61,170 bases of DNA from a virus (Duplodnaviria; Caudoviricetes), in IMG/VR virus record IMGVR_UViG_3300048576_000579, positions 1 through 61,170 of that record; one strand, given 5' to 3'. The translations under genes and the position numbers were made by a program. Below, one piece after another: positions 474-13,586 of the stretch; the first letter of the stretch is position 1; every line of letters begins with the position of its first letter. A model generated the notes under the pieces. That model made no database searches. It was given only the letters and a program-made list of their open reading frames with translations, and was not told the DNA's origin.

Positions 474-3400
474 CTACTCGGCTTCGTCCTCGTCCCCATC
501 CGCATCCTTCATCATCATCATAAATTGCTTACTCCCGCGCGCCATGCGCATGGCCTGGTTGCGCAGGTTCGACGCTCGAATGAACGATACGGCCCCCGCC
601 AGCTTGTGCTTTGCCACGCTCTGGTTAAACTTCTGAACATCGAGCACGATCTTTGACCATTCCGCAGAGTCCTTTTTCTGGCTCGCGTAGAAGGCCCGCG
701 CCCGCTCGTAAATCTCGTTGCGCCGCTCCGTGAACCCGGCCACGTCCGCCTTCGCCTCATGGGTCCGCTGCTTCAAGGATGACTCATCGGACGGCGTGAC
801 GCCCAAGGCCTTCAGCGTGGTTTCCGTCGCGCTCGGCCGGTAGGGATGACCCTTTTCGTCGTACACCCGCGCGCCGGTCTTGGTTGTGACGCCCTGTTCC
901 GACTCGCGGGCGGCCTGGAGCATGCGCCCTGCCGCGTTTGGCAAGGCCTTCTCGGCGGCCCGGCCATACTGCCCCTTTTTTAGATACCTCCAGGCGTCCG
1001 CCACGTCTCTCCACACGCCGCCTATCGGCCCAGAAACGTCACTGGCGCTGTCCGGAATGTTCGGCAGCATCTTCATGGAGCTGGTCAGGTTCATGCCCAT
1101 CAATCCGAACGCGCCGAACCGTGCGAAGTCGTCTACATGTCCGCCAAGGTTGCGCCGGATCATGTCGTGCAAGACCTTGTCCGGATCGCGGTCAGGCTCC
1201 AGCCCCTTGGCAATGGCCTGCGCCACCATCCAAGCGACCGACCCCGTACCACCCGCGAGCAGGACAGGCGAGAGCGTGAGCCAGGCGGCGGCCTTGGCGT
1301 TCTTCTGGCTGAGCCCCAGGTCGTAGAGCATTTGCAAGGTGTTGTGGCCGAACTTTTGGTACACGTACATGACCTGCCCGATGCGCCCCAACCCGGTCCC
1401 CCAGGCCAAGTACGGCATGGCCTCCTTGCCGTAGACGCCGTGCGCGCGGTCGCTCGCCAACTCCGCGCTCTTCATGGCCTGAGCATGATCCTGTCCAGCG
1501 CGGCGAGCCAAGCGGTAGGCGGCCAGCATTGTGCCGCCTCGGTTTGCCTGCTCGGTTTTGGAGAAGAACCACATGGCCCCCTTCATGGCCGTGGCCCACC
1601 CATCGCCCATGGCCGCCCGGTACGCACTCGACGCCTCGCGCGCGAATTGTGCGTCATCCAGATTCTTCCGCTTCACCTCGGCCATGAACGCGCGCTCATC
1701 GTCATTCTTGAGCGCTGATTCTCTCCCGGCGAAGGCCCACGCGGAATAGTCCTTGAGCCCTTGCGCCGTGGCCAGCGCAATCTGGCCCATCGAGCCCTTG
1801 CCGCCCAGCGCGTATTGGTGAATGGCCGGCGGGACGTTGGTGGCCAGCGCGACCATGTTCACGAGCGCGCTGCGCGGATTGAAGCCCAGGAACTTGAAGC
1901 TCGCGATCCCCTTGGCTAGGCCTATGGCTCTATCCGCGGCCTCGGCGTTCCGGAGCTGCTCCTTCAGATACTCAATGGAGTATTGGTAAGCCTCGGGTTC
2001 ATCCTTCGGATTAATCCCCTTGCCGTCCTTGCCGCCGAACAGCGCCAGCGTCGCCTGCTGCGCGGCTTCGCCCTTGGCCACGCCGTAAGCCGTCATGGTC
2101 GTGTAGGTCATAAAGCGCTTGCCGGGGTCCGTCTCGTATCCCAGAACCACTTCACCACGGCGCCCTTCGCGCTTAATCGACGCGGACCGGAAGCCGCGGG
2201 CCTTGATGTCGTCGGCCAGATTTTGAATCAAATCCTGGTAAAGCGCCTCTTTGACCTCATCCTGGACGGCGCCTTGCTTGCGCTCGACAGAAACAACCCT
2301 TTTCCCTTCATCGCGCATGCGGTCGGCAAGCGCCGGGTCCGTCGTGGTCTCGCGCATAGTTTCGGTCTTGCCCAAGCCCTTATCCTTGAGCCAGGTGATT
2401 TCCCAAACGCCTTTCGAGGCGCTGGCCGCCGAGCTGATCGCCTTGGCCATCTCCAGAGCCCGGATAGCCTGCTGCGTCGATTCCGGCAGGGCCTTGACCT
2501 TGCCCACAGGGTTCATCTTCCAGCCATCGCGCTCCATCTGCCTGCGTAGCATGGTCGCCTGCAATCCCGTGGCCGCGTGCTGGCGGTAGAACTCCCATTC
2601 GCCGGTCTCGGGATTCTTGCGCTTGCCCGTGACCGTGAAGCTCCCCTGATCGCGCTGGCGCGGCGCGTAGCTTCCGCGCAGCTCGCCCATGCGCTCAATC
2701 GCCTCTTTGAGCGACATCTGCACCACGCGGCCGGATTCGTCCGTGTATTCGACGTCCTTGAGGATCTTCTCAATGGGCACGCCACGCTCGTCGGCCTTCT
2801 TCTGTGCATCGGCCAGCATCTCTCGGTACGCCTTCAGCCGCAGGTCAAGCAGCTTGTCATACGCCTGACGCATGTCCTTCCAGAGGGAGATGGTCTCTTC
2901 CGAAGCCCCGTGCTCTTGAAAAACCTTTTCCGTGGCGTCCATCTTCCATTCGTTGACGTCGGCGCGGTCCATGATCTCGCCGAGCAGTTTGTATTGCTCT
3001 GGGGATTCTTTGGCCAGCTTCTTCAGGCCGGCATGGATCGTGGTCCCGTCCTCGCGCTGGAGCGTCTCGAACATGATCTCGTGAGCTCGATCCTGGCGGT
3101 TGCGGAAAACCTCGAATATCTTCCGGAATACCGGATGCTTGATCCATTCCGGAGAGCGCCCCAGCTTACCAAGGAAGCCGAACTCCGAGGCCTTTCCCGG
3201 CATGAGCATGTTGGACAGCGAGTATTGCAGGCCGGCCGCCACGTCCCCGACGAAAGCCTTGATCTTTGAGGAGTTGGCCATGGTCGGAGTGGGCGTGTCC
3301 TCGATGGGGGTGGAGAGGGAGAAGCGAATGTCCGGGTTGCGCGCCGAGAACGTGCCTACGTTGCCGGTGGCGGATTTGATTTGTTCAGGATCAATGACAG

Positions 3401-6400
3401 CAATCTCATTTATCTTGCCATTCTCCTCCATGATCAACGCGTCTGAAGTTATATTCTGGTAGTGCCCCCATGCTTTTTGACCGACATACACAGGGTTTAC
3501 AGACTTTATGTACACAGGATATACGGCTCCCCCAGATTCAGGAGCATAATGACCGGCATAGTCTGGATGCGGACTAAAAAAAGACCCTGACCGAAAATTC
3601 ATATAGCCATACGGACTATTTTCTGCTTTTGCCTTTCTGAAATGCTCTAATGCATGTTCATAGTCCCCGCGTGTTCCCCCTCCATTTGGCAAAAATGATG
3701 TTATGTCGCCATTCCCTGTGCCGTGATACACCACGAGCGGTTCGCCGTTTTCGTCAACAACCCGTGAGGGGAGATGTTCCGGCTTGACGTTTTCGAGAAG
3801 AGTGCTTATTTTCATCTCAGAGATACCCGCTTCGCCCGGTCCGGATTTGATATCCGGTCTCGGCAACCTAGCGGGTTTTTCTATTTCTGATAGGTAGTGG
3901 TCGTAGAAAAATGAACCATCTCTTGCCTTTTTAACTACTAATCTGGCAACATACTCGTCACCACCGATACGTAGCGGAGCATAGAAGTGGTAAACCGTGG
4001 GAATATTGTCGAACTGCTTCTGCTTTCTGTTTGTTTCGTACCCTACCAAAACAGCTTTTTTTAACAGTTCAGGGATAGCGGGAACAGACTGATTGTGAGC
4101 AATCTGCGCTGCATGGCGCATAGTTTCGTCTACCCCGACGCTGCCGATGATTATGCTCCATCCAGTATCAGCATTTACCGTCTTACTTTGCGTTTTTGAA
4201 GTGCGCAGATTTTCTAAAATCTCACGAGCCTTTTCTTGCATTTCTCTTATTGGGGTACCGGATGGGGAGATCTCATCCCCGCGCAGAACGGTGTAGGGGA
4301 CGGGGCTTTTTCGTAGCACTTCCCAATCCCCAAACCACTCCTTAAACCACGGCGTCCGCACCTGCTTCCACTGCAATTCGTTGAGCTGCGACGGTTTTCC
4401 ACTCGGCGCAAGCAAGCGCCCCTGCGTATCTCGCACCTCTTTCACCGCGTCGAGCTGTCGCTGCGCCTCGGCCTGGACGCGCTTTTGCTCCTCTGGCTTC
4501 AGGTTGCCAAAGTCGTGGCGCATCTCGGCCAGGGAGCGGGCTGCGGCTTTTCGTTCTGTCATCGACGCCCGCACCCCGGCCAACTCCCCGCCCATCGCGC
4601 CGCCAAAACCTTGCCCCGCGGTCTCGCGCGCCTGCCCCCGGCCGGTCAGCCAGTCGAAGCTGTCGCGCGCGATCTGCTCCATTTCTGGCCGGCTGAGCTT
4701 GTTGCCGGGGAGGATCTTCGTAACCAGGCGCTCCAAGAAATCGACGAACTTCTGCCAGAGCGTGCGCTCTTTCGGGCTGAGGTCTTCGCCGAGCTGCAAC
4801 TTCTCGGTGAGTTGGGCGTGCATTTCTTCAGCCAGCTCTAGGCGGTGTTCAGCGGAGGACATCCCATCTCGCTGAGGATAGAGGCGCTTGAGGTCGGCCC
4901 ATTCCTTGGAGCCTTCAAACGTTGCGGCCACACGGTGTAAGTAACCGACAAACTGCGCCTTCCACTGCTTTCCGAACTGCTGCTCGAAAAACCCACGCAA
5001 GCCATGATGACCCACGGACTCATGCAGCCAGACTTCTTTGGCCGACTCGAGCACGGAATGGGCAACGTCAGCCTCCCCCATCATGGCCCCGGCATTGAAA
5101 TAGATCGTCTGGGTTTTCGGATCGTAGACGGCGCGCATGGTCTGGCCTTCGGGAATCTGGTCGATGACATGGCGGGGGGCTTCGTCCATGGACGCGAGCA
5201 CCTTGATTGCGATGCCGCGTTTGGCGATTTTTTGGAGCGGTTCAAGCTGCTTTTCGAGGGCGGAGACTTGGGCGGGGGTGGCCCTTCTTTCTCCAGAGGC
5301 CTCGCTGTGCGAAAAGCGCGCGTCGTCCACGTTCAAGGCCTGGCCAAGTTCTTCTGCACTCGCGCCTCCCTCCGTCTTGACTCCATCGGCCTGGAGCTCC
5401 TTCTCCAGTTGCGCGACCTTGGCCACGGCTTCGGCCAGGGTGGACTCTTGCGGGAATGGCGCGCCTATTCTGCGATCATAAGAGGCCTTCTCGTCCTTGT
5501 TTCCTTGGATGCTCTTCAGCCTGTTTGAGAGATCGCGTTGCACCATGATATTGGCTTCTTTGACGCGACGCGCAAGCGTTGTCCCGGCCGTTTCCTCCAG
5601 GTTTATGGCGCCACTCCCGTACGCAGGCCGCAAGTCAAAGCGCCGCTTGTTCTTGGAAACAAAAATGTCTCCGATACGGCATTCCCCGTCCTGTAGGCGC
5701 TCTAGATCCAGGTAGATATTCTGATCGCCTTGACGCTTGCCCAGGAGCCGCGTCGCCTCTTTCGCCTTGCCTTGCTTGAACTGCTCCAGCTCCTTGGCCG
5801 CCTTGGCCCAGAGTGCGTCCCCCGCCGCGCGGTCGCCTTCGTAGTGCTTCCCGTCGATCTCCATAAAGAAGTCTTTCGACGCCAGATACCCCTCGTCACC
5901 CAAGTCCTTGAGCAATGCGGACAGTTCGTTTACACGCTCAGTTCCGCTTTTGATGCTGCTGGAAAGGCTTCGCGACTCTCGTTTGAAACGTATCTGCTCG
6001 TTGTGATGCGCAGCCTGTAACGACTCCAACCGTTGCACTTCTCCGCGCAGCTTTACCAGCTCGATAGCGCGCTCGTCGCCTGCTGCCAGGGCCGCGGCCA
6101 TTTCAAACTGCGAGGCCTCGCCCACGTCGTCGAGGTTGCGAACGGTGTCATCGCCGGAAAAGGCCTGATCAATGAATTTTTGTTTGCGGGCCAGGCTGCC
6201 CCACTGCGTCGAGTCGTAGGTGCCTTTCGTGGCGTACCAGTTTATCGAGATTTTTTTGTTCAGGTTCCCCTGTCGCAGGATGCGGCCATGCGCCTGCTCG
6301 ACCGCGGCCGGATACCAGGGTGGGCTCAGGTAGTGTAATTCCTTGAGACGACGCTGAACATTCAACCCCGTCCCCATATTCTTAGACGATCCGAAAAGGA

Positions 6401-9400
6401 TGCGCTTGGTCCCGGCGCGCAGCTCCTTGAAGAGCGCCTCCTTCTTGGCGTGCGTGTTGTAATCCTCCATCCAGGCAATTTCAGAGGGGTTCACCCCAGC
6501 CTCTTTCAACCGTCCGTTGATGAAGGCCTTGACGTCAAAACCGCGGTTCTTGCGCACAGCCTCGCCAAACCCGACGTCTGAAAAAACAATCTGCGTTGCG
6601 CCAGGCCTTTTCTCCCCGTCGTAGCGCTCTTGGGTTGTCCGTTTGTGGGTCGCAATGATCTTGTCGATCATCTGGTTCAGCTTAGAGTTCTTGTCGTCCT
6701 TGGCGCCGACAAGCCGCAGATCAATCGCCGCCAGTCGACCGTCCGTGATGATATTGATCAGAGGGTCAGGGTTTCCGGGCTGATCTTTGCTCGGCTTGAA
6801 TTTCTTGCTGATTTCGATGCGGCGTTGCAGCTCTCCCTTGAGATAGGCGTTCAGGGCGTCCGACGGCTGTACGACGACGTTCGTGGGGTTTCCCTGGTTT
6901 GTCAGCGTCGGTCGTTTTACGATGTCGCCCAACTGCTTGGAGCCCATAACATCCATGAACGTGAGCACGCGCTTCATGAGCTCAGGGACGTTGACGAACT
7001 TGGCGAAGCGCTCGACGGTCTCATATGATCCGGCCGCGTTCTGCTCGACCAGGGCGGCAACCTCGCCGAACATTTGGGACCAAGCGTCGAAGTGCTCCAT
7101 GCCGCCCCTTTCCAATCCTTCGGGGTCCATGTAGCGCATGATCGAGTACAGCTCGCCCATGGTATTGACGACGGGCGTCCCGGACGCGAATACGTGCGAG
7201 CGACCCGGGTTTTGCTTGGCCAAATGCAACGTCTTGACGTAGAGGTCCATGGCCTTGGCAGAGCCATTCGGGTCAATCCCCTTCAAACCCATGCGGTTCG
7301 TGACAAACTCCAGCTTCCTGAACTCGTGAGCCTCGTCCACATAGAGAAAATCAACGCCCATGTCCTCAAATGAGACGATGCCGTCTTTTTCCTCCTTGGC
7401 CGCTTTACTCATGATTTTGGATTCGAGATTTTCTTTCTGCTTCTCCAGCTTCTTGCGGGTGATCCTGTCGCCGGTTTCGACGTCATCCAGGGCTGCATCA
7501 AGCTGTTCCAAAAATTCGTTGACGACGCTGCGCAACGACTCCTCGCGCACGCCAATCTTGCCGAAAGAGCTGTGCGTGATGATGATGGCGTCCGGATCGT
7601 TCAGCGCAGCCTGAGCAAAGAAGCGTCGCCGGTTGGAGGTATGAAAGCCCTTTTCGTCCGCGACCATGATGTTCGCCAGCGGGTAGGCGTCCACAAACTC
7701 GGATGCGAACTGCTGCAGCATGTGATTCGGGACCACGTACATGGGCCGCTTGACCAGCCCGACGCGGCGTTGCTCCATGCCCGAGACGATCATTTCCAAA
7801 GTCTTGCCGGCGCCTACCGCATGGTTCAGGTAGGTTGTACCGGTCTGCAGGACGCGCCAAATCGCCCGTTTTTGGTGGTCGTAGAGCTTGTACTTGAGCG
7901 AGAGCCCCGGCAGGGTAAGGTGGCTACCGTCGAACTTGCGCGGCGCCAGGTTGTTGAAATTCCGATTGTAGTAGGCGGTCAGTTCTTCAGTGCGTTTGGC
8001 GTCTGTCCAAAGCCAATTTCTGAACGCCTCTTTGATCTTGGAGACTTTTTCTTGCGCCGCCGCCGTCTCTTCTTTGTTCGTGAAGGTTTTTGTGCTTTTA
8101 TCAACGGTGACGGTATCTTTGATGGTTACAGTGCGGTTGTTCATAGCCGCAGAGAGCAAGGCCGCCGGTGGGCGTCTGACCGTGCCCCATTCGCTGGCCG
8201 CCGTCCCCTTGCTGTTCTCTCCGACGACGAACCAGACGCCGGCATCGCGGCTATAGGAGATCCCGGAGTGGAGCTCCATGATCTCCTTGGCGAACTGCTC
8301 AATGTGCGCGGAATCGACCCACGGCGCCCCAAGGGCGACCGTGATCTCCGACGGATTCAGCGGCCGCGGCTGGACCCTGAGCAGTGCCTGGACGTTGCGC
8401 TCAAAGCGTTCGTCCGACTTGGCCACGGTCTGCGCCTCCTCCAGCTTAGACACGACGTCGCCAGAGAGGTATTCATCGGCCGTCTGCCAGCCGTGACTGG
8501 GATCTTCAAAGACCGCATCGCCCAACTCCTCGATGACTCGCTCTCGCGACGATCCGGCAAGCTCGGCGATATGGGCGATGTCGAGCCGCCCCAGGTCGTT
8601 CAGGGAGACGGCCAGGGCGTCTTGTGCGGTCTTGATCTCCGGCCGCGAAGGTTTTTTGATCGTTCGTCCTTTAAAGAAATTCCCCTTCTGAATCTGGTTA
8701 TTGGAGTCAATCGTTTCGAGCGCTTCCATGAGCGAGCGCTCATAGTCAAGGTCAAGCAGCTTCTCCCGTTTGTGTCTGCGAGAAACCGCTACAACGTCCT
8801 CGCCCTCATCGTTTTTAGCTTTGCGTTCAATGACCATGAATTCACGAATCTGGCCATGCTCACGCACAAAAGCGTCATAGGCCTTTCCCAGGGCCTTAAG
8901 TGAAGACTCCCAGTCACCGTCGTTGATCTGGTCATGTTGCGCCTGCTTGAGTAACACCTTGAGCGACGCGTATCCCTTGAGCCAGCTCTTTTCTTCAGGC
9001 TTGACCTTGGCGATTTCATCCACCGAAACGCCAGCCCCGTCCTGGACCACGCGGACCTCGCCCGAACCATCCACGTACAGCGCACCTTCGCGCTTGACGT
9101 TCGGGTTGAAATCCTTCTCGGCTGTCCTGGCGTTTGTGACTTCCGCCTTTTTCCCTTGGGACTCCATGTAGACGTCCTTGGGCAGGTTCTCGACGGCCTT
9201 GGCAAAATGCGCCTCAATGTCGCCGTCCATCGGCGTGACCGTGTATTCACCCCGATAGCGCATCTTCCCCGACAAGCTGTGCTCGCCCAGGACCATCTCC
9301 GGATGCTGTACGAAGTATTCATTGACCAGCGTCGGGCCTTCCGGCGTCTTGACCTCGTCTAGGCCAAGCCAGGATTCTCCGCTCTTGGCCGCGCCCTCCT

Positions 9401-12400
9401 CGCGCTTGCGCAGAAAAAGGACGTCCGTGACCACGTCGGTTCCGGCGTTCTGCTTGAAGGCTGTTTGCGGCAGACGCACGGCGCCGAGCAAGTCAGCGCG
9501 GTCTGCCAGGTACTGGCGCGCCGCGTCGTCGGCCTTGTCCATGGTGTAGCGGCTGGTCACGAAGACAAGCAGACCGCCTGGGCGTACGCGGTCGATGGAT
9601 TTTGCGAAGAAGTAGTCATGGAGCGCGAAGCGGTTCTTCCGGTATTCCGGATCAGACATTACCTTCGTGCTCGAAAAAGGCGGATTCCCAATCGCCAGGT
9701 CAAAATAATCCTTGGGGAGCTTCTGCTTGGAGAAATCGCCCTCGATGACGTTGGCGTTGGGCAAGAGTTGCTTGGCGATGGCCGCGGTCATGGAGTCCAT
9801 CTCTACGCCGACATAATGGATGTTGTTGGCGATATGCTGCGGCGCGGCTATGGGGAAGAGGCCAACGCCCATGCCAGGCTCCAGGACATTTCCTTGCGTG
9901 AAGCCAAGACGCTCCAGACCGGACCAGATCGACCGAATGACTTTTTCCGACGTGTAATGCGCGTACTGCGTCGAGCGCATGGCCGTGCGCAGCTCTTCGG
10001 GGCCAAACAGGGAAACAACCCGCGTGACGAGGTCTTTCCACTCAGGCCTGGCCCGGTCCAGGTCTATTCGGCCGTCGTAGCTGCTGACAGGAAAAAGATT
10101 CTGGGAGAGTTCAGACGCGCCCCAGCCCGTCCATTTTACGAGCTGGGCCTGCTCTTCCGGCGTGGCTTGGCGTTGCTCCTGCTGGAGCTTTTTGACGAGT
10201 TCGACGATACCGAGGTTGCGTTCGGCGGTCTTTTTCCACGACCCCTCTCGCGCGAGGGAGCCTTCGGGCGCTACATAGTTTCCGCCTCTTCCTCGTCTTC
10301 TATCGGCAGGTCCGCGATCCCCTCCTCTATGGCTATCTTCCAGCATTGGTTCGCCCACATGTGCGCCTGCTGGAAGATCTCCAGCCCGTCCTCTGGTTCT
10401 TCCTTTCCGCTCCCTCCGAGTTCTCTGGTCATCGCCTCTTCGCGAATCGCCTCCATTCTTCCTTGCAGGAACTCGTTCAGCGTCCCGTCCTTCTCCATCT
10501 CGCTGTACGCCTTGGGTGCTCTGTCCTTGAGCGCCACCCTGAGCATCTCTAGCATTTTGTGATGTGGCATCCACATGGCTTTTCGCCTCCGTTTGCTCAG
10601 ATTTTACGCTTGTATTGGGGGCGTTGTCTACATGCTGGAGCTGTTCCTGCGTCTCTTTTTTGGGGGCCGCAGTCCGCGCCGGACCCGCCTCGTCATACCC
10701 TACGTCCTGCTGCTCGCCGAAATCAACATGTTCCTCAACGCCGGCATTGAATCTCTCCTCCGCCAAAGCCCGCGCGTACCGATGCACCTTCGCCTTCTCC
10801 GGGAACTTCTTCTCGACGGCCTCGACGCTGCCGAGCTTGTCCACGACCTTGGAAACGTGCTCGCGCATACCAGGCGTGAGCGTAGCGCCAAGTTCTTGAG
10901 CCCCTGGCGCTTTCGTCTTCGCTACCGAAAACCTTTCTTCAGCGAGCATCCGAGCATACCGCTGGGCTGTCGCTTTTTCCGATGGATACTGTTTAGAGAC
11001 TGCTTCAACGCTTCCGAGCGCATCCACATTTTGGGATATTTTGTTTCTCAAAGCTGGCTTTAACGCTCGCCCGAGCGCTTCTCGCACCATGAGCAGGCGC
11101 TGCCGATCTTCATCAACTCCCTGGTTGGCTTTGCCGAGTTCTTCAGAAGACGAAGAGGGAGACGCAACCTCGGCCGCACCCCGTGTCGAAACAGGCGGTG
11201 CTGCTGGGCTGGCTGCTCCTGGCTGATTCGCGTGCTGCTCGACTTGAGCCCCTGTTGCCTGTTCTTGGTTCTGAAGGACGGCCGTGCGCACGGAAGCGGC
11301 CGGAATGCCGGTCACAGTCGCTTTCCCTTCTCCCTCCATGCCCTGTGCCGAATTCTTTTCTTGCGCTCCTCCTGGGGCAACCTCGGGCGTCGTTTGTGTC
11401 TCACCAGTGAGAGGCAATTGGTTTTGCATCTCACGAACGGGCGATTGCTGAGACGCAACGGGTTGGACGGAAGGAGACGCCGCGAACGGATCGCCCTCGA
11501 TTCCATCGACCCCGGCCGGAAGGTCGGATGCGCCCACGCTCCCCTCGAACCCAGGCGCGGCATGGTCGGGCATTTGCGGCGCCGCGTAGCGTTCCTCCGC
11601 CAAGGCGCGGGCGTAGCGCTCGCCCACGCTGTTCCCGCGGAAAACCTTCTGCACCTTCTCCAGCGAGCCGAGCCTGTCAACGCGGCGGGCTATACCCTCC
11701 AGGGCCTTCGGCTTCAGCGTCTGCTGGGCCTCGGCGAAGATCTCCATGGCGGTTGGCGCGGCGGGAGCTGTTTCCGTTTTGGAAAGAGTTGGGGCGGCAG
11801 ACGCCACGGGTTGCGCCGCCTGCTCCGGAGTCGTGGGCTGCTGCTCGGTCGGGGAAGCGGGGGCCGCCGGCTCGACCTGCGCCTGCTGCGCGGCCGAACG
11901 CTCCTCGAAAATCCGCTCAGCGAGCGCGACCGTGTACCGGCTACGCGGGGACTTGTCCGCGAACGTTTTCCTGATAAGTTGTAAGTCGTTGATTTTCTCT
12001 ATGTTTTTCGCCGCCGTCTCGCGCGTATTAGGGCGCAGGTGCGTCTCCCCGTACGCAAGAACATCCTCGCGCGAAGCCTCTGGCGGTAATCCTGCCTGCC
12101 GTTGCCGCTCTTCAACCTGCGCCTCTTCCGAGTTCCGGCCGGCGATCTCCATGCGCTGGGCCGGGGTGGCGTCGGGGGGGATTGGCAGAGGCGGGGCGGT
12201 GCTTGCCGTCCGCGGCTGTTCCTCCTGCGGTTGGACTTGACCTTGTTGGGGGATTAGGTCGGCGAACGGGTTGGCCTCTTGAGTTAACTCAGGGGCTAAC
12301 TCTTGGGGCATGCCTCCAAGGCCGAGGGCGCCGTAGTTGGAAGAGCCAAGCTCCTTCCAGAGAGCGGAAAGACGCTCTTGCTCTTCCAGGGTTGATTTGC

Positions 12401-13586
12401 CTGACGCATCGCGTTTGAGCAATCCAGAGAATTCTTGTTCCGGCCGTTGCTGACCTGATCCATGGGCGAAGCCGTGCGCGAGGTTCGTTCCGCCGCCCAT
12501 CAAAAACGCGCCTGGAGCGACATCTAAACCCTGGAGCGTCTGCTGCCCCATTTTGCCCACGACGTCTTGCTGGTCCTTGGCGTACAGATGATTCAGAAAG
12601 TCGCCAATGGATTTATCTCGAAACGCCAGCTTGGTCTCTTCGCCTATAAAAGGCGAGCGGCCGACATTTTCAAAAAAAGCTTGTGCTGGCTCTTCTAACA
12701 CTTCGGTCAACGCCTCTGTGCTGCCAGACGTGACGGCATTGCCAATTTTTTTGGCCAAAGATTGTCCAGATGGACCCAAAACGGCGTCAAGCCCCAGCTT
12801 GTTGAGCGCCCAGGACGCGACGCCGTAGCTACCTGCGCGCATGGCGGCCTCTGGAGCGGACACCCCCTGGCCTCGCAAATCATGATAGGACGGCAACGCC
12901 TCCTGGGCGGCGCCAAGGGCGGCGCCAACTCCTGTTCGCAAACCCTGCGGCCCTGCAGCGATGATCGACGGCCCCATACTGACGGCGCCCTCGATAGCGC
13001 CGCGAGCAAGATACCTCGGGTCCAACAACAGCTCTGGATTCTCGAAAAGTCTTTTCCCCTGATAGGCCTCAGGCCCAATCATATCCAGTCCCTGAGCTTG
13101 CTGTGACCAAAAGTCAGCAGACTTCTTTCCCGTCTCCGCGAGCGTCTCCGAGCCAATGGCGTCCCCGAGCAGCTGTACCCCGGCCCCGGCCCCCTGGATG
13201 ATGGATGCCCCGCCACGCGCCAGCCCTTGGTAAAGCGCGCTCTTCGGCAACGGCGTGTCGCTGAACGGGTTCAGAGCTTGCACCTCCTCCTTGAGGCCTG
13301 CGCCCATCCGCGCGAAGTATCCTTGCTCCGGTTGCTGGGGCTGGACAAGCGTTGGCTTCAATAACTCGTGAATTGCCCGCTGATCATGACTCGCTGGCCG
13401 CACTCCAAGTCTAAGAAGCGCCTCAGCCTCTGGCGTATCCTGTCCCGGCATAACCATGCCTTGCCCCGAGGGCTGCGCAGGCGCTTGCGTCTGCGGCGCT
13501 GGGATCAAATCGGCGAAGGGGTTCGCTTCGGGCTGCGCCCCCTGCGGCGCTCCGGCTGGGATCAAATCGGCAAAAGGATTGTCCAC
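474..13586 (-). CDS. Giant DarB-like large polyvalent protein (N6-adenine MTase + SNF2 helicase + zincin metallopeptidase + LPD3-like RNase + ADP-ribosyltransferase + LPD38-like C-terminus), probably virion-injected
   Basis: VLEPGMGVGLF and IGNPPF (MTase); HAVGAGKT, VDEAH, SGTP, QAHGRILRQGN (SF2/SNF2); HESVGH (HExxxH zincin); VYHGT..FFS..NEIAV (ART); last gene of the structural operon. Confidence 0.92.
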   Translation of the reverse strand: MDNPFADLIPAGAPQGAQPEANPFADLIPAPQTQAPAQPSGQGMVMPGQDTPEAEALLRLGVRPASHDQRAIHELLKPTLVQPQQPEQGYFARMGAGLKEEVQALNPFSDTPLPKSALYQGLARGGASIIQGAGAGVQLLGDAIGSETLAETGKKSADFWSQQAQGLDMIGPEAYQGKRLFENPELLLDPRYLARGAIEGAVSMGPSIIAAGPQGLRTGVGAALGAAQEALPSYHDLRGQGVSAPEAAMRAGSYGVASWALNKLGLDAVLGPSGQSLAKKIGNAVTSGSTEALTEVLEEPAQAFFENVGRSPFIGEETKLAFRDKSIGDFLNHLYAKDQQDVVGKMGQQTLQGLDVAPGAFLMGGGTNLAHGFAHGSGQQRPEQEFSGLLKRDASGKSTLEEQERLSALWKELGSSNYGALGLGGMPQELAPELTQEANPFADLIPQQGQVQPQEEQPRTASTAPPLPIPPDATPAQRMEIAGRNSEEAQVEERQRQAGLPPEASREDVLAYGETHLRPNTRETAAKNIEKINDLQLIRKTFADKSPRSRYTVALAERIFEERSAAQQAQVEPAAPASPTEQQPTTPEQAAQPVASAAPTLSKTETAPAAPTAMEIFAEAQQTLKPKALEGIARRVDRLGSLEKVQKVFRGNSVGERYARALAEERYAAPQMPDHAAPGFEGSVGASDLPAGVDGIEGDPFAASPSVQPVASQQSPVREMQNQLPLTGETQTTPEVAPGGAQEKNSAQGMEGEGKATVTGIPAASVRTAVLQNQEQATGAQVEQHANQPGAASPAAPPVSTRGAAEVASPSSSSEELGKANQGVDEDRQRLLMVREALGRALKPALRNKISQNVDALGSVEAVSKQYPSEKATAQRYARMLAEERFSVAKTKAPGAQELGATLTPGMREHVSKVVDKLGSVEAVEKKFPEKAKVHRYARALAEERFNAGVEEHVDFGEQQDVGYDEAGPARTAAPKKETQEQLQHVDNAPNTSVKSEQTEAKSHVDATSQNARDAQGGAQGQSTQGVQRDGEGRDAERVPARKNGGDSRRGDDQRTRRERKGRTRGRAGDLPAGAHVGEPMLEDSHRGGDRGPADRRRGRGGNYVAPEGSLAREGSWKKTAERNLGIVELVKKLQQEQRQATPEEQAQLVKWTGWGASELSQNLFPVSSYDGRIDLDRARPEWKDLVTRVVSLFGPEELRTAMRSTQYAHYTSEKVIRSIWSGLERLGFTQGNVLEPGMGVGLFPIAAPQHIANNIHYVGVEMDSMTAAIAKQLLPNANVIEGDFSKQKLPKDYFDLAIGNPPFSSTKVMSDPEYRKNRFALHDYFFAKSIDRVRPGGLLVFVTSRYTMDKADDAARQYLADRADLLGAVRLPQTAFKQNAGTDVVTDVLFLRKREEGAAKSGESWLGLDEVKTPEGPTLVNEYFVQHPEMVLGEHSLSGKMRYRGEYTVTPMDGDIEAHFAKAVENLPKDVYMESQGKKAEVTNARTAEKDFNPNVKREGALYVDGSGEVRVVQDGAGVSVDEIAKVKPEEKSWLKGYASLKVLLKQAQHDQINDGDWESSLKALGKAYDAFVREHGQIREFMVIERKAKNDEGEDVVAVSRRHKREKLLDLDYERSLMEALETIDSNNQIQKGNFFKGRTIKKPSRPEIKTAQDALAVSLNDLGRLDIAHIAELAGSSRERVIEELGDAVFEDPSHGWQTADEYLSGDVVSKLEEAQTVAKSDERFERNVQALLRVQPRPLNPSEITVALGAPWVDSAHIEQFAKEIMELHSGISYSRDAGVWFVVGENSKGTAASEWGTVRRPPAALLSAAMNNRTVTIKDTVTVDKSTKTFTNKEETAAAQEKVSKIKEAFRNWLWTDAKRTEELTAYYNRNFNNLAPRKFDGSHLTLPGLSLKYKLYDHQKRAIWRVLQTGTTYLNHAVGAGKTLEMIVSGMEQRRVGLVKRPMYVVPNHMLQQFASEFVDAYPLANIMVADEKGFHTSNRRRFFAQAALNDPDAIIITHSSFGKIGVREESLRSVVNEFLEQLDAALDDVETGDRITRKKLEKQKENLESKIMSKAAKEEKDGIVSFEDMGVDFLYVDEAHEFRKLEFVTNRMGLKGIDPNGSAKAMDLYVKTLHLAKQNPGRSHVFASGTPVVNTMGELYSIMRYMDPEGLERGGMEHFDAWSQMFGEVAALVEQNAAGSYETVERFAKFVNVPELMKRVLTFMDVMGSKQLGDIVKRPTLTNQGNPTNVVVQPSDALNAYLKGELQRRIEISKKFKPSKDQPGNPDPLINIITDGRLAAIDLRLVGAKDDKNSKLNQMIDKIIATHKRTTQERYDGEKRPGATQIVFSDVGFGEAVRKNRGFDVKAFINGRLKEAGVNPSEIAWMEDYNTHAKKEALFKELRAGTKRILFGSSKNMGTGLNVQRRLKELHYLSPPWYPAAVEQAHGRILRQGNLNKKISINWYATKGTYDSTQWGSLARKQKFIDQAFSGDDTVRNLDDVGEASQFEMAAALAAGDERAIELVKLRGEVQRLESLQAAHHNEQIRFKRESRSLSSSIKSGTERVNELSALLKDLGDEGYLASKDFFMEIDGKHYEGDRAAGDALWAKAAKELEQFKQGKAKEATRLLGKRQGDQNIYLDLERLQDGECRIGDIFVSKNKRRFDLRPAYGSGAINLEETAGTTLARRVKEANIMVQRDLSNRLKSIQGNKDEKASYDRRIGAPFPQESTLAEAVAKVAQLEKELQADGVKTEGGASAEELGQALNVDDARFSHSEASGERRATPAQVSALEKQLEPLQKIAKRGIAIKVLASMDEAPRHVIDQIPEGQTMRAVYDPKTQTIYFNAGAMMGEADVAHSVLESAKEVWLHESVGHHGLRGFFEQQFGKQWKAQFVGYLHRVAATFEGSKEWADLKRLYPQRDGMSSAEHRLELAEEMHAQLTEKLQLGEDLSPKERTLWQKFVDFLERLVTKILPGNKLSRPEMEQIARDSFDWLTGRGQARETAGQGFGGAMGGELAGVRASMTERKAAARSLAEMRHDFGNLKPEEQKRVQAEAQRQLDAVKEVRDTQGRLLAPSGKPSQLNELQWKQVRTPWFKEWFGDWEVLRKSPVPYTVLRGDEISPSGTPIREMQEKAREILENLRTSKTQSKTVNADTGWSIIIGSVGVDETMRHAAQIAHNQSVPAIPELLKKAVLVGYETNRKQKQFDNIPTVYHFYAPLRIGGDEYVARLVVKKARDGSFFYDHYLSEIEKPARLPRPDIKSGPGEAGISEMKISTLLENVKPEHLPSRVVDENGEPLVVYHGTGNGDITSFLPNGGGTRGDYEHALEHFRKAKAENSPYGYMNFRSGSFFSPHPDYAGHYAPESGGAVYPVYIKSVNPVYVGQKAWGHYQNITSDALIMEENGKINEIAVIDPEQIKSATGNVGTFSARNPDIRFSLSTPIEDTPTPTMANSSKIKAFVGDVAAGLQYSLSNMLMPGKASEFGFLGKLGRSPEWIKHPVFRKIFEVFRNRQDRAHEIMFETLQREDGTTIHAGLKKLAKESPEQYKLLGEIMDRADVNEWKMDATEKVFQEHGASEETISLWKDMRQAYDKLLDLRLKAYREMLADAQKKADERGVPIEKILKDVEYTDESGRVVQMSLKEAIERMGELRGSYAPRQRDQGSFTVTGKRKNPETGEWEFYRQHAATGLQATMLRRQMERDGWKMNPVGKVKALPESTQQAIRALEMAKAISSAASASKGVWEITWLKDKGLGKTETMRETTTDPALADRMRDEGKRVVSVERKQGAVQDEVKEALYQDLIQNLADDIKARGFRSASIKREGRRGEVVLGYETDPGKRFMTYTTMTAYGVAKGEAAQQATLALFGGKDGKGINPKDEPEAYQYSIEYLKEQLRNAEAADRAIGLAKGIASFKFLGFNPRSALVNMVALATNVPPAIHQYALGGKGSMGQIALATAQGLKDYSAWAFAGRESALKNDDERAFMAEVKRKNLDDAQFAREASSAYRAAMGDGWATAMKGAMWFFSKTEQANRGGTMLAAYRLARRAGQDHAQAMKSAELASDRAHGVYGKEAMPYLAWGTGLGRIGQVMYVYQKFGHNTLQMLYDLGLSQKNAKAAAWLTLSPVLLAGGTGSVAWMVAQAIAKGLEPDRDPDKVLHDMIRRNLGGHVDDFARFGAFGLMGMNLTSSMKMLPNIPDSASDVSGPIGGVWRDVADAWRYLKKGQYGRAAEKALPNAAGRMLQAARESEQGVTTKTGARVYDEKGHPYRPSATETTLKALGVTPSDESSLKQRTHEAKADVAGFTERRNEIYERARAFYASQKKDSAEWSKIVLDVQKFNQSVAKHKLAGAVSFIRASNLRNQAMRMARGSKQFMMMMKDADGDEDEAE
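3784..3812 (+). promoter_or_regulatory. Putative antisense sigma70 promoter inside the giant gene
   Basis: TTGACG (3784-3789), 17-nt spacer, TATTTT (3807-3812). Confidence 0.5.
3819..3882 (+). ncRNA. Putative ~64-nt antisense small RNA (rod hairpin ending in a U-tract)
   Basis: AGAGATACCCGCT pairs with AGCGGGTTTTTCT; inner stem CCGGAT/ATCCGG; starts 7 nt after the -10 box. Confidence 0.45.
10271..10576 (-). CDS. Nested out-of-frame 101-aa helical protein (TnpV-like pattern) inside the giant gene
   Basis: GGAGG SD at 10590-10586, 9 nt before ATG; own promoter; globular acidic composition, while the host frame here is R/G/D-rich and looks off-frame. Confidence 0.75.
   Translation of the reverse strand: MWMPHHKMLEMLRVALKDRAPKAYSEMEKDGTLNEFLQGRMEAIREEAMTRELGGSGKEEPEDGLEIFQQAHMWANQCWKIAIEEGIADLPIEDEEEAETM
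10601..10630 (-). promoter_or_regulatory. Internal sigma70 promoter for the nested gene
   Basis: TAGACA (10630-10625), 18-nt spacer, TAAAAT (10606-10601), then SD and ATG. Confidence 0.6.

What the first reader, a model, noticed from the sequence alone, without database searches (positions are those of the whole stretch)
3784..3882. Antisense promoter, rod-hairpin small RNA and U-tract embedded right after the RNase-like (LPD3) domain: candidate RNA antitoxin
Seen on the + strand, antisense to the giant gene: TTGACG-N17-TATTTT, then from about 3819 a 64-nt sequence whose ends pair (AGAGATACCCGCT/AGCGGGTTTTTCT) around an inner CCGGAT/ATCCGG stem, ending in a T run. In protein terms this is the poorly structured linker EKPARLPRPDIKSGPGEAGISEMKISTLLENVK directly C-terminal to the LPD3-like domain. 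LPD3 is proposed to be a BECR-fold RNase. Inference: the nuclease cassette carries its own small RNA, acting either as an antisense silencer of leaky transcripts or as a type III-like RNA ligand for the RNase. That would be a toxin/RNA module hidden within a virion polyprotein.
Basis: partly seen in the sequence, partly recalled or inferred. Interest (0 to 1): 0.8.

Follow-up and report, generated by a model that had tools for sequence, protein, structure and literature searches.

The report
Antisense RNA element nested in LPD3
A promoter-like site, a long hairpin and a T-run lie backwards inside a giant phage gene, just after its LPD3 domain, and relatives keep the same hairpin, so it looks like a hidden small-RNA gene that travels with that domain.

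Summary
TTGACG-N17-TATTTT lies at 3784-3812 (+), a 64-nt rod hairpin at 3819-3882 (-33.2 kcal/mol, z -5.3) and a T-rich tract at 3876-3888. All lie antisense to a 4370-aa polyvalent-protein gene, in the disordered tail between LPD3 and ART-PolyVal.

The window alone is weak evidence. The promoter match is at chance level, and the peptide explains most of the fold.

Homologues change the verdict. LPD3 tails that share only 25-44% protein identity carry the strongest or near-strongest antisense hairpin of their locus in 17 of 25 loci. The hairpin is kept at synonymous sites in 16 of 19 lineages and shows compensatory pair changes in three structure-guided alignments. A model trained on other lineages finds it in 44 of 46 loci picked by LPD3 sequence alone, and it finds the window's copy as the only hit in the window. 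The hairpin goes with LPD3, not with ART.

Promoter-like hexamers are kept in about half the lineages.

No RNA data, Rfam family or paper was found for it.

Best reading: a nested cis-antisense small RNA that works like lambda OOP or SR4. The antitoxin role and the idea that LPD3 is an RNase remain untested.

The parts
3784..3789 (+). -35-like hexamer TTGACG
   Evidence: It is the antisense of codons AAC GTC AAG (N-V-K). TTGACA-type hexamers sit at the same relative place in L026, L027, L030, L034 and L045, and TTGACT in L082.
3807..3812 (+). -10-like hexamer TATTTT, 17 nt after the -35
   Evidence: It is the antisense of AAA ATA (K-I). ATA makes up 13% of the gene's Ile codons.
3819..3882 (+). 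64-nt rod hairpin, the predicted RNA body; the inferred start is near 3819-3820
   Evidence: -33.2 kcal/mol, z -5.3. (rank 7 in the window). Homologous hairpins.
3876..3888 (+). T-rich tract TTTTTCTATTTCT at and after the 3' arm; terminator-like
   Evidence: It is the antisense of GAA ATA GAA AAA (the conserved EIEK motif). The joint codon probability is 0.006. T-runs recur in homologues.
3816..3892 (+). Match to covariance model R2, which was built from five other lineages
   Evidence: 21.8 bits, E 0.1 over 314505 bases; the only hit in the window. E 0.0078 over 24510 bases.
3756..3902 (-). LPD3 C-terminal tail or linker (residues 3229-3277) that holds the element
   Evidence: pLDDT is below 50 for model residues 153-174.
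3903..4241 (-). LPD3 domain (PF18798), residues 3116-3228
   Evidence: E 4.9e-23, 81.9 bits against a cut-off of 27.
3327..3755 (-). ART-PolyVal domain (PF18760), the next module
   Evidence: E 3.7e-16. Close ART-only relatives align from residue 3274 onward.
474..13586 (-). Giant polyvalent-protein gene, 4370 aa
   Evidence: It lies in a provirus record with portal and terminase genes.

Best explanation
Positions 3784-3892 on the + strand are one copy of a conserved RNA element that I found in no Rfam family or paper. It is nested antisense in the C-terminal tail of LPD3 modules of giant polyvalent proteins.

Its parts, in order, are:
- a sigma-70-type promoter;
- a start about 6-9 nt after the -10;
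- a rod hairpin of 54-80 nt whose sequence differs between lineages;
- a U-tract that is the antisense of A-rich codons (EIEK and the like).

Shown here: the hairpin on the antisense strand is under selection and is inherited with LPD3.

Inferred: it gives a small RNA of about 65-75 nt that is little more than a terminator stem-loop. Being perfectly complementary to the giant mRNA, it pairs with it, with first contact through its apical loop. That triggers double-strand-specific cleavage and decay. Leaky transcripts of the polyvalent gene in the resident prophage or element would thus be silenced, while full late transcription would outrun it.
For: 1. Rank within the locus. The antisense hairpin in the LPD3 tail is in the best 0.12 of blocks in 17 of 25 homologous viral loci. 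For the sense strand the figure is 9 of 25.

2. Each lineage has its own hairpin sequence and its own tail peptide.

3. Synonymous sites. With the peptide kept and GC matched, the hairpin beats resamples at p < 0.05 in 16 of 19 non-redundant loci (Fisher 3e-22). One of the 16, L017, had only 2 resamples.

4. Covariation.
- A7: 95.6% of cells paired against 84.0 +/- 2.7 in shuffles; 10 pairs changed on both sides against 3.6 +/- 1.5 (0 of 500 shuffles reach this).
- A9, which includes the window: 94.8% against 82.7 (0 of 500).
- A10: 90.8% against 77.4 (0 of 500).
- Slid controls pair 37-58% of cells.

5. Link to LPD3.
- Upstream of ART, 15 of 23 loci with an LPD3 tail have a top-ranked hairpin, against 6 of 56 loci with another module there (p 9e-6).
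- Model R2 hits 44 of 46 loci picked by LPD3-domain peptides alone. All hits are antisense and lie just after LPD3, with three different downstream modules.
- A Neisseria gonorrhoeae LPD3 with no ART after it has the element too.
- So do loci found in bacterial genomes with the Pfam HMM (read by eye).

6. Promoter. The anchored score beats positions elsewhere in the same locus in 10 of 19 loci (Fisher 1.5e-15). It beats peptide-preserving resamples in 6 of 19 (3e-6).

7. Strand. The antisense fold is more stable than the sense fold in 17 of 19 loci, by a mean of 7.6 kcal/mol, with 76 G-U pairs against 24. The T-run lies 3' of the hairpin only on the antisense strand.

8. R2, trained without the window, finds 3816-3892 (+) as its only hit in the window.
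Against: - No transcript is shown. The one run found covers only conserved coding pieces and none of 3804-3937.
- In the window itself the evidence is weak: hairpin p 0.09 and promoter p 0.29 under the peptide-preserving null, T-run p 0.07-0.12, and promoter matches in the gene at chance level.
- Promoter-likeness is largely explained by the peptide motifs in 13 of 19 loci. It is not significant in the AT-rich lineages.
- In lineages with an insertion, the promoter-like motif sits about 55 nt further from the hairpin.
- About half of the strand asymmetry is selection bias. Background windows chosen for antisense stability give -3.75 +/- 4.5, and 16 of 19 are negative.
- The covariation alignments were fitted to the model's structure.
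- A pairing site in the middle of a 13-kb ORF, far from any start codon, is an odd place for a regulator.
- The tool's terminator scan did not list the site.
Confidence: 0.5

Rival explanations
1. It is an antisense-oriented intrinsic terminator only. The hairpin and U-tract stop stray transcription that runs against the giant gene before it enters the LPD3-coding part. The promoter-like hexamers are a by-product of the conserved peptide motifs (V-K/N, K-D-K, L-L-Q).
For: The hairpin and T-run are the most constant parts. Promoter-likeness beats the peptide-preserving null in only 6 of 19 loci. The distance between promoter-like motif and hairpin varies in the insertion lineages.
Against: In the GC-richer lineages, canonical TTGACA-N17-TAnnnT stands 6-9 nt before the hairpin, with positional p below 0.01 in L005, L025, L026, L030, L034, L045, L079 and L082. 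There is no clear reason why only LPD3 tails would need such an insulator: 56 other junctions upstream of ART look like background.
Confidence: 0.15
2. It is an RNA partner of the LPD3 protein, in the manner of a type III antitoxin. The hairpin RNA binds and masks, or is a decoy substrate of, an LPD3 domain that acts on RNA. It therefore shuffles together with that domain.
For: There is strict linkage with LPD3 whatever the neighbouring module. The LPD3 model (pLDDT about 90 over the domain) has RelE, ParE, BrnT, RegB, MqsR, YoeB, colicin D and E5 and CdiA-CT RNase toxins among its weak structural matches (Z 3-5.1).
Against: Those Z values lie below the tool's stated noise level of 7-8. Foldseek found nothing at E 0.001 or better. 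A profile of the domain found no related solved structure, and the window's LPD3-plus-tail protein matched no PADLOC family. The hairpin sequence is free to vary, which suits pairing in cis better than specific protein recognition. No toxicity is shown.
Confidence: 0.13
3. It is a sense-strand or DNA-level feature. One form is an mRNA hairpin that slows ribosomes between domains or promotes frameshifting. The other is a DNA hairpin that marks a recombination junction for module shuffling.
For: The sense strand also folds well in some loci (rank 0.12 or better in 9 of 25). The site is a module boundary: ART-only relatives align from residue 3274. L034 has A AAA AAG before the hairpin.
Against: The antisense strand is favoured beyond the bias control. 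The T-run and the promoter make sense only on the antisense strand. The window has no slippery heptamer (GAA AAA CCC), and the hairpin begins inside the A-run, not 5-9 nt after it. Other module junctions lack such hairpins.
Confidence: 0.1
4. It is chance plus protein constraint, with no function at the nucleic-acid level.
For: For the window alone, the Pro/Arg-then-Gly peptide explains most of the fold, and the promoter match is at chance level.
Against: Synonymous-site selection in 16 of 19 lineages, covariation, and 44 of 46 model hits at one relative position and strand.
Confidence: 0.03

Closest known systems
Lambda OOP RNA, a short antisense RNA against cII
   Same: A short phage-encoded cis-antisense RNA that overlaps a coding region. 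Its action on the cII-O mRNA depends on RNase III, going by the titles of Krinke and Wulff 1987 and 1990 in the reference list of PMC5869508. Its length of 77 nt, its overlap with the 3' end of cII, and its own promoter and hairpin terminator are recalled, not read here.
   Different: OOP lies at the end of a small regulatory gene and is specific to lambdoid phages. This element lies in the middle of a 13-kb ORF, is tied to one protein domain, and recurs in many unrelated elements with a different sequence each time.
Type I toxin-antitoxin pairs with overlap at the 3' end (bsrG/SR4 of a Bacillus subtilis prophage)
   Same: The antisense RNA is complementary to the 3' end of the toxin message and promotes its RNase III-dependent decay. 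First contact is made by the loop of the RNA's terminator stem (PMC3834814, passages read).
   Different: Type I toxins are small hydrophobic peptides, each with its own mRNA. Here the overlapped unit is a soluble domain of about 115 aa (113 residues match the 114-position Pfam profile) inside a 4370-aa protein. No toxicity is known. The RNA would be about 70 nt, against about 180 nt for SR4.
Type III toxin-antitoxin (ToxIN); recalled, not read here
   Same: The idea of an RNA that neutralises an RNase protein and is inherited with it.
   Different: ToxI is a tandem array of repeats on the same strand, upstream of toxN, and the toxin itself processes it. Here there is a single copy on the opposite strand with no repeats.
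Polyvalent proteins and the LPD3 domain (Iyer et al. 2017, PMC5512222)
   Same: The host gene is a typical phage-type polyvalent protein, with methylase, SNF2 helicase, LPD3 and ART-PolyVal domains.
   Different: A find-mode search of that paper gave 0 occurrences of 'antisense' and of 'small RNA'. Nothing nested at the nucleic-acid level is described in the passages I saw. Its supplements could not be read.

Membership tests
Cis-encoded antisense small RNA with its own promoter and terminator (OOP-like) | Sigma-70-type -35 and -10 with a 16-18 nt spacer just upstream | tested here: met
   Window: TTGACG-N17-TATTTT, 9 of 12. Homologues: 10 of 19 beat positions elsewhere in their own locus. Only 6 of 19 beat the peptide-preserving null. 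This is a consensus match only, not activity.
Cis-encoded antisense small RNA with its own promoter and terminator (OOP-like) | Stem-loop followed by a U-tract on the same strand | tested here: inconclusive
   The hairpin and T-run are present. The T-run is significant in 6 of 19 loci. The tool's terminator scan did not list the site, because the stem and inner loop exceed its limits.
Cis-encoded antisense small RNA with its own promoter and terminator (OOP-like) | A discrete transcript is detected | not testable with these tools
   No RNA holder covers 3804-3937.
Structured RNA under selection (general test) | Structure kept through compensatory changes and at synonymous sites | tested here: met
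Type I toxin-antitoxin | Small hydrophobic toxin peptide with its own mRNA | tested here: not met
   The overlapped gene encodes 4370 aa. LPD3 is a soluble alpha/beta domain.
Type I toxin-antitoxin | The RNA represses a toxic product | not testable with these tools
   No assay was possible.
Type III toxin-antitoxin (ToxIN-like) | Tandem repeats of the antitoxin RNA upstream of the toxin, on the same strand | tested here: not met
   A single copy in the window, on the opposite strand.
Any Rfam family | Match to a curated covariance model | tested here: not met
   Only mir-1285 at E 1.4 in the window region. There were 0 matches at E 0.1 or better in 20 homologous loci.
LPD3 (PF18798) | Pfam profile match above the curated cut-off | tested here: met
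   81.9 bits against a cut-off of 27, residues 3116-3228.
BECR-fold RNases (RelE, colicin E5/D and barnase type), as claimed for LPD3 | Shared fold with solved members | tested here: inconclusive
   VIA-align: best Z 5.1 (CdiA-CT, 7m5f_C), with many RelE/ParE-type toxins at Z 3-4.8. That is below the tool's noise level. Foldseek found nothing at E 0.001 or better.
Programmed -1 frameshift signal | Slippery X XXY YYZ heptamer 5-9 nt before a structure on the sense strand | tested here: not met
   The window reads GAA AAA CCC, and the stem starts inside the A-run. Only L034 and its close copies have A AAA AAG.

The most novel reading that the evidence does not exclude
LPD3 is a RelE/BECR-like RNase warhead, and the nested antisense RNA is its built-in immunity factor. 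That would make a self-contained toxin and RNA-antitoxin cassette whose antitoxin gene is written backwards into the toxin module's own disordered tail. The pair could then never be separated when modules are shuffled between polyvalent proteins of phages, conjugative elements and bacterial chromosomes.
Probability: 0.18. Interest if true: 0.9.

Novelty: new variant of a known kind. Interest (0 to 1): 0.78.

Why it matters
Polyvalent proteins are read purely as strings of protein domains. A conserved RNA element written antisense into one of these domains' tails would add a second layer of information to them. The variable "linker" peptide would then be dictated by an RNA hairpin. The conserved motifs around it (EIEK, K-D-K, V-K) would double as a U-tract, a -10 and a -35.

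It would also give the first handle on how resident prophages and conjugative elements keep such potentially harmful giant genes quiet. And it would give LPD3, a domain of unknown function, a testable partner.

The element is widespread. It occurs in viral contigs with 31-57% G+C across the LPD3 tail region, in a Neisseria gonorrhoeae chromosome record, and in loci from bacterial genome assemblies, one of them a Rhodospirillales MAG. One northern blot or a re-reading of existing strand-specific RNA data could settle whether it is expressed.

Tried and rejected
- Public reads: one run was listed (wastewater, RNA by guess, word share 0.05). Laid on 3000-5000, its contigs cover only short conserved coding pieces, such as 3717-3762, at under 95% likeness, and nothing on 3804-3937. 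No RNA holder is listed, so this says nothing about expression.
- DNA search of phage records with 3300-4400: no match.
- Close relatives of the junction: none. The best proteins share only the ART part at 50-61% identity. Phage and plasmid tblastn found no record covering 80% of the query.
- RNAalifold on MAFFT alignments of the hairpins gave 0 pairs, because sequence alignment misplaces the arms. I replaced it with model-guided alignments.
- A composite scanner of my own (promoter, then MFE domain, then T-run) missed the window's own element and was dropped.
- A YUNR motif occurs in the apical loop of 9 of 19 loci. That is not distinguishable from chance.
- Further copies of the hairpin in the window: none at up to 3 mismatches.
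A single-protein query replaced it.
- LPD3 against PDB sequences and PADLOC: nothing.
- Sampling 401 genomes of one phylum found LPD3 in only 6.
- Paper searches found no description of this element: 'LPD3' / 'polyvalent protein', 'polyvalent protein' + 'antisense RNA', and 'ART-PolyVal' (passages). The supplements of Iyer et al. 2017 could not be seen.
Full report
**What is there.**
The window is a 61170-base provirus record with portal, terminase and tail genes. A single ORF, 474-13586 on the - strand, encodes 4370 aa. It has an adenine-methylase region, an SNF2 helicase region, LPD3 (residues 3116-3228) and ART-PolyVal (from residue 3278). That makes it a phage-type polyvalent protein in the sense of Iyer et al. 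2017 (PMC5512222).

The finding lies on the + strand, in the 49-residue tail between LPD3 and ART.
- TTGACG at 3784-3789;
- a 17-nt spacer;
- TATTTT at 3807-3812;
- a hairpin at 3819-3882, with arms at 3819-3831 and 3870-3882 and an inner stem at 3841-3846 and 3852-3857;
- a T-rich tract at 3876-3888.

**The window taken alone.**
- The hairpin folds at -33.2 kcal/mol, z -5.3 against dinucleotide shuffles. It ranks 7th in the window after GC correction.
- The promoter match (9 of 12) is one of 6 in the gene, against 3.2 +/- 2.0 expected.
- If the peptide EIEKPARLPRPDIKSGPGEAGISEM is kept and synonymous codons are redrawn, 575 of 2000 versions fold as well with the gene's own codon usage, and 53 of 1500 when GC-matched. 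Pro and Arg codons in the first half simply pair with Gly codons in the second.
- The codons behind the T-run (GAA ATA GAA AAA) are unusual, with joint probability 0.006. Even so, the T-run statistic reaches only p 0.07-0.12.

On this evidence alone I would have called it a likely by-product.

**Homologues reverse that.**
No close relative of the junction exists. The nearest proteins share only ART, at 50-61% identity, and align from residue 3274. But LPD3-tail-ART is a common module pair at 25-36% identity. In it, EIEK, a K-D-x-x-L-L-x-I-L-Q or L-L-x-x-V-K motif, and SKVVDENGEPLVVYHGT are conserved around a variable stretch of about 20 residues.

A scan of viral contigs returned 80 loci. The peptide word VVDENGEP recurs in them. 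Twenty-five of them span the junction.

In 17 of those 25, the strand antisense to the gene carries, exactly in the tail, a 67-nt fold that ranks in the best 0.12 of all blocks of the roughly 2.5-kb locus. For the sense strand the count is 9 of 25. The hairpins are long rods of different sequence in each lineage. Most end in ...CCCTTTTTCTATTT or the like.

**Is this selection on nucleic acid?**
- In 16 of 19 non-redundant loci the antisense hairpin is more stable than peptide-preserving, GC-matched synonymous resamples at p < 0.05 (Fisher 3e-22). L017's null had only 2 samples. The window itself gives p 0.09.
- A covariance model built from two near-identical copies found five other lineages. 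On these, 95.6% of cells pair against 84.0 +/- 2.7 in shuffles, and 10 pairs change on both sides against 3.6 +/- 1.5 (0 of 500).
- A second model, built from those five, finds the window's element at 3816-3892 (+) as its only hit in the window (21.8 bits, E 0.1 over 314505 bases).
- The nine-sequence alignment that includes the window gives 94.8% against 82.7 +/- 2.4.
- Slid controls pair 37-58% of cells.
- These alignments are fitted to the model, which favours the structure.

**What it belongs to.**
- Upstream of ART, loci with an LPD3 tail have top-ranked antisense hairpins in 15 of 23. Loci with some other module there have them in 6 of 56, with a median rank of 0.43, which is about background (Mann-Whitney p 9e-6).
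- A fresh sample of 46 viral loci was chosen only by peptides of the LPD3 domain proper. It gives model hits at E 0.001 or better in 44 of 46. All are on the antisense strand and all begin right after LPD3. The module that follows is ART in some, a different module in most, and a third kind in one. Twelve distinct sequences there give 90.8% pairing against 77.4 +/- 1.7 (0 of 500).
- A Neisseria gonorrhoeae chromosome record has a 1640-aa ORF with LPD3 and no ART after it. It carries TTGCAA-N17-TATCAT, then 8 nt, a 74-nt rod and TTTTTCTAT.
- LPD3 loci pulled from bacterial genomes with the Pfam model show the same layout in L009, L014, L010, L015 and L008. L011 has the hairpin and T-run but an unclear promoter, and L006/L007 are unclear (read by eye).
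- Phage F116, which has ART but no LPD3, lacks it.

So the element is part of the LPD3 module.

**Promoter and strand.**
- In the GC-richer lineages, canonical TTGACA-N17-TAnnnT stands 6-9 nt before the hairpin.
- Anchored scores beat other positions of the same locus in 10 of 19 loci (Fisher 1.5e-15) and T-runs do so in 6 of 19.
- Against the peptide-preserving null, only 6 of 19 promoters are significant (3e-6). The hexamers coincide with conserved residues: V-K/N gives GTCAA, and K-D-K gives the complement of TATCTT.
- In lineages with an insertion, the promoter-like motif lies about 55 nt further upstream.
- The antisense fold is more stable than the sense fold in 17 of 19 loci, by a mean of 7.6 kcal/mol, with 76 against 24 G-U pairs. 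Background windows show no bias (+0.6 +/- 4.8). Windows picked for antisense stability give -3.75 +/- 4.5. So roughly half the asymmetry is selection bias, and by my arithmetic the excess is about 3.7 standard errors.

**Mechanism.**
The best-supported reading is a nested small-RNA gene whose transcript is essentially a terminator stem-loop of about 65-75 nt, perfectly complementary to the giant mRNA.

The closest working models are:
- lambda OOP, whose RNase III-dependent action on cII mRNA is given in the reference titles of PMC5869508;
- SR4 of the bsrG/SR4 pair. SR4 is complementary to the 3' end of the toxin message, promotes RNase III-dependent decay, and makes first contact through its terminator loop (PMC3834814).

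By analogy, the RNA would clear leaky transcripts in the resident element and be outrun by late transcription. This step is inference. No transcript, target cleavage or phenotype is shown.

**LPD3 itself.**
The domain model is confident (pLDDT about 90 across the domain), and the hairpin-coded peptide is disordered. Foldseek finds nothing. VIA-align's best rows are RNase toxins of the RelE/ParE, BrnT, RegB, MqsR, colicin D/E5 and CdiA-CT kind, at Z 3-5.1. That is thematically striking but below the tool's noise level. The passages read in Iyer et al. place the LPD domains among those of elusive function. The idea of a toxin with an RNA antitoxin therefore stays a minority reading.

**Novelty.**
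- No Rfam family matches.
- The paper searches found no description.

I rate it a new variant of a known kind: a cis-antisense RNA, but nested in and co-inherited with a protein-domain module across shuffled giant genes.

Noticed in passing
window 12100-13586 (-), residues 1-480 of P0001: The N-terminus of the giant protein repeats the motif NPFADLIP three times (near residues 3, 22 and 445). Between about residues 520 and 950 there are four copies of a unit of about 35 residues ending in RYARALAEERF.
   Followed up: no
window 4290-4330 (-) and loci L021, L025, L034, L044, L045, L079: LPD3 modules are preceded by a conserved W-F-G-D-W-E joint (the window has FKEWFGDWE). ART modules begin at S-K-V-V-D-E-N-G. 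Alignments of close relatives stop sharply at these joints, which look like module boundaries.
   Followed up: partly
window 41182, 44014, 46588, 24919, 30973, 1186: Six other 67-nt windows fold as well as or better than the finding after GC correction. The one at 1186 (- strand) lies inside the giant gene.
   Followed up: no
L096 1195-6117 (Neisseria gonorrhoeae record NZ_CP119142.1): An intact 1640-aa ORF with LPD3 and the antisense element lies in a record filed as a 2.17-Mb 'plasmid', which has only 17 annotated features and none here.
   Followed up: partly
L123-L134, L141 (1631-1679, antisense): One lineage has a shortened element of 49 nt with the same base and T-run, and an extra peptide insertion of about 20 residues before the K-D-K-x-L-L motif.
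   Followed up: partly
L009, L014, L015 (contigs C193, C219 and C216 of one bacterial genome assembly, G094): Three separate LPD3 modules on three contigs of one genome assembly each carry their own antisense hairpin and T-run.
   Followed up: partly
window 3780-3960: The tail uses AT-rich codons. It has 40 G+C in 75 nt, where the gene's codon usage would give about 47 for the same peptide.
   Followed up: partly
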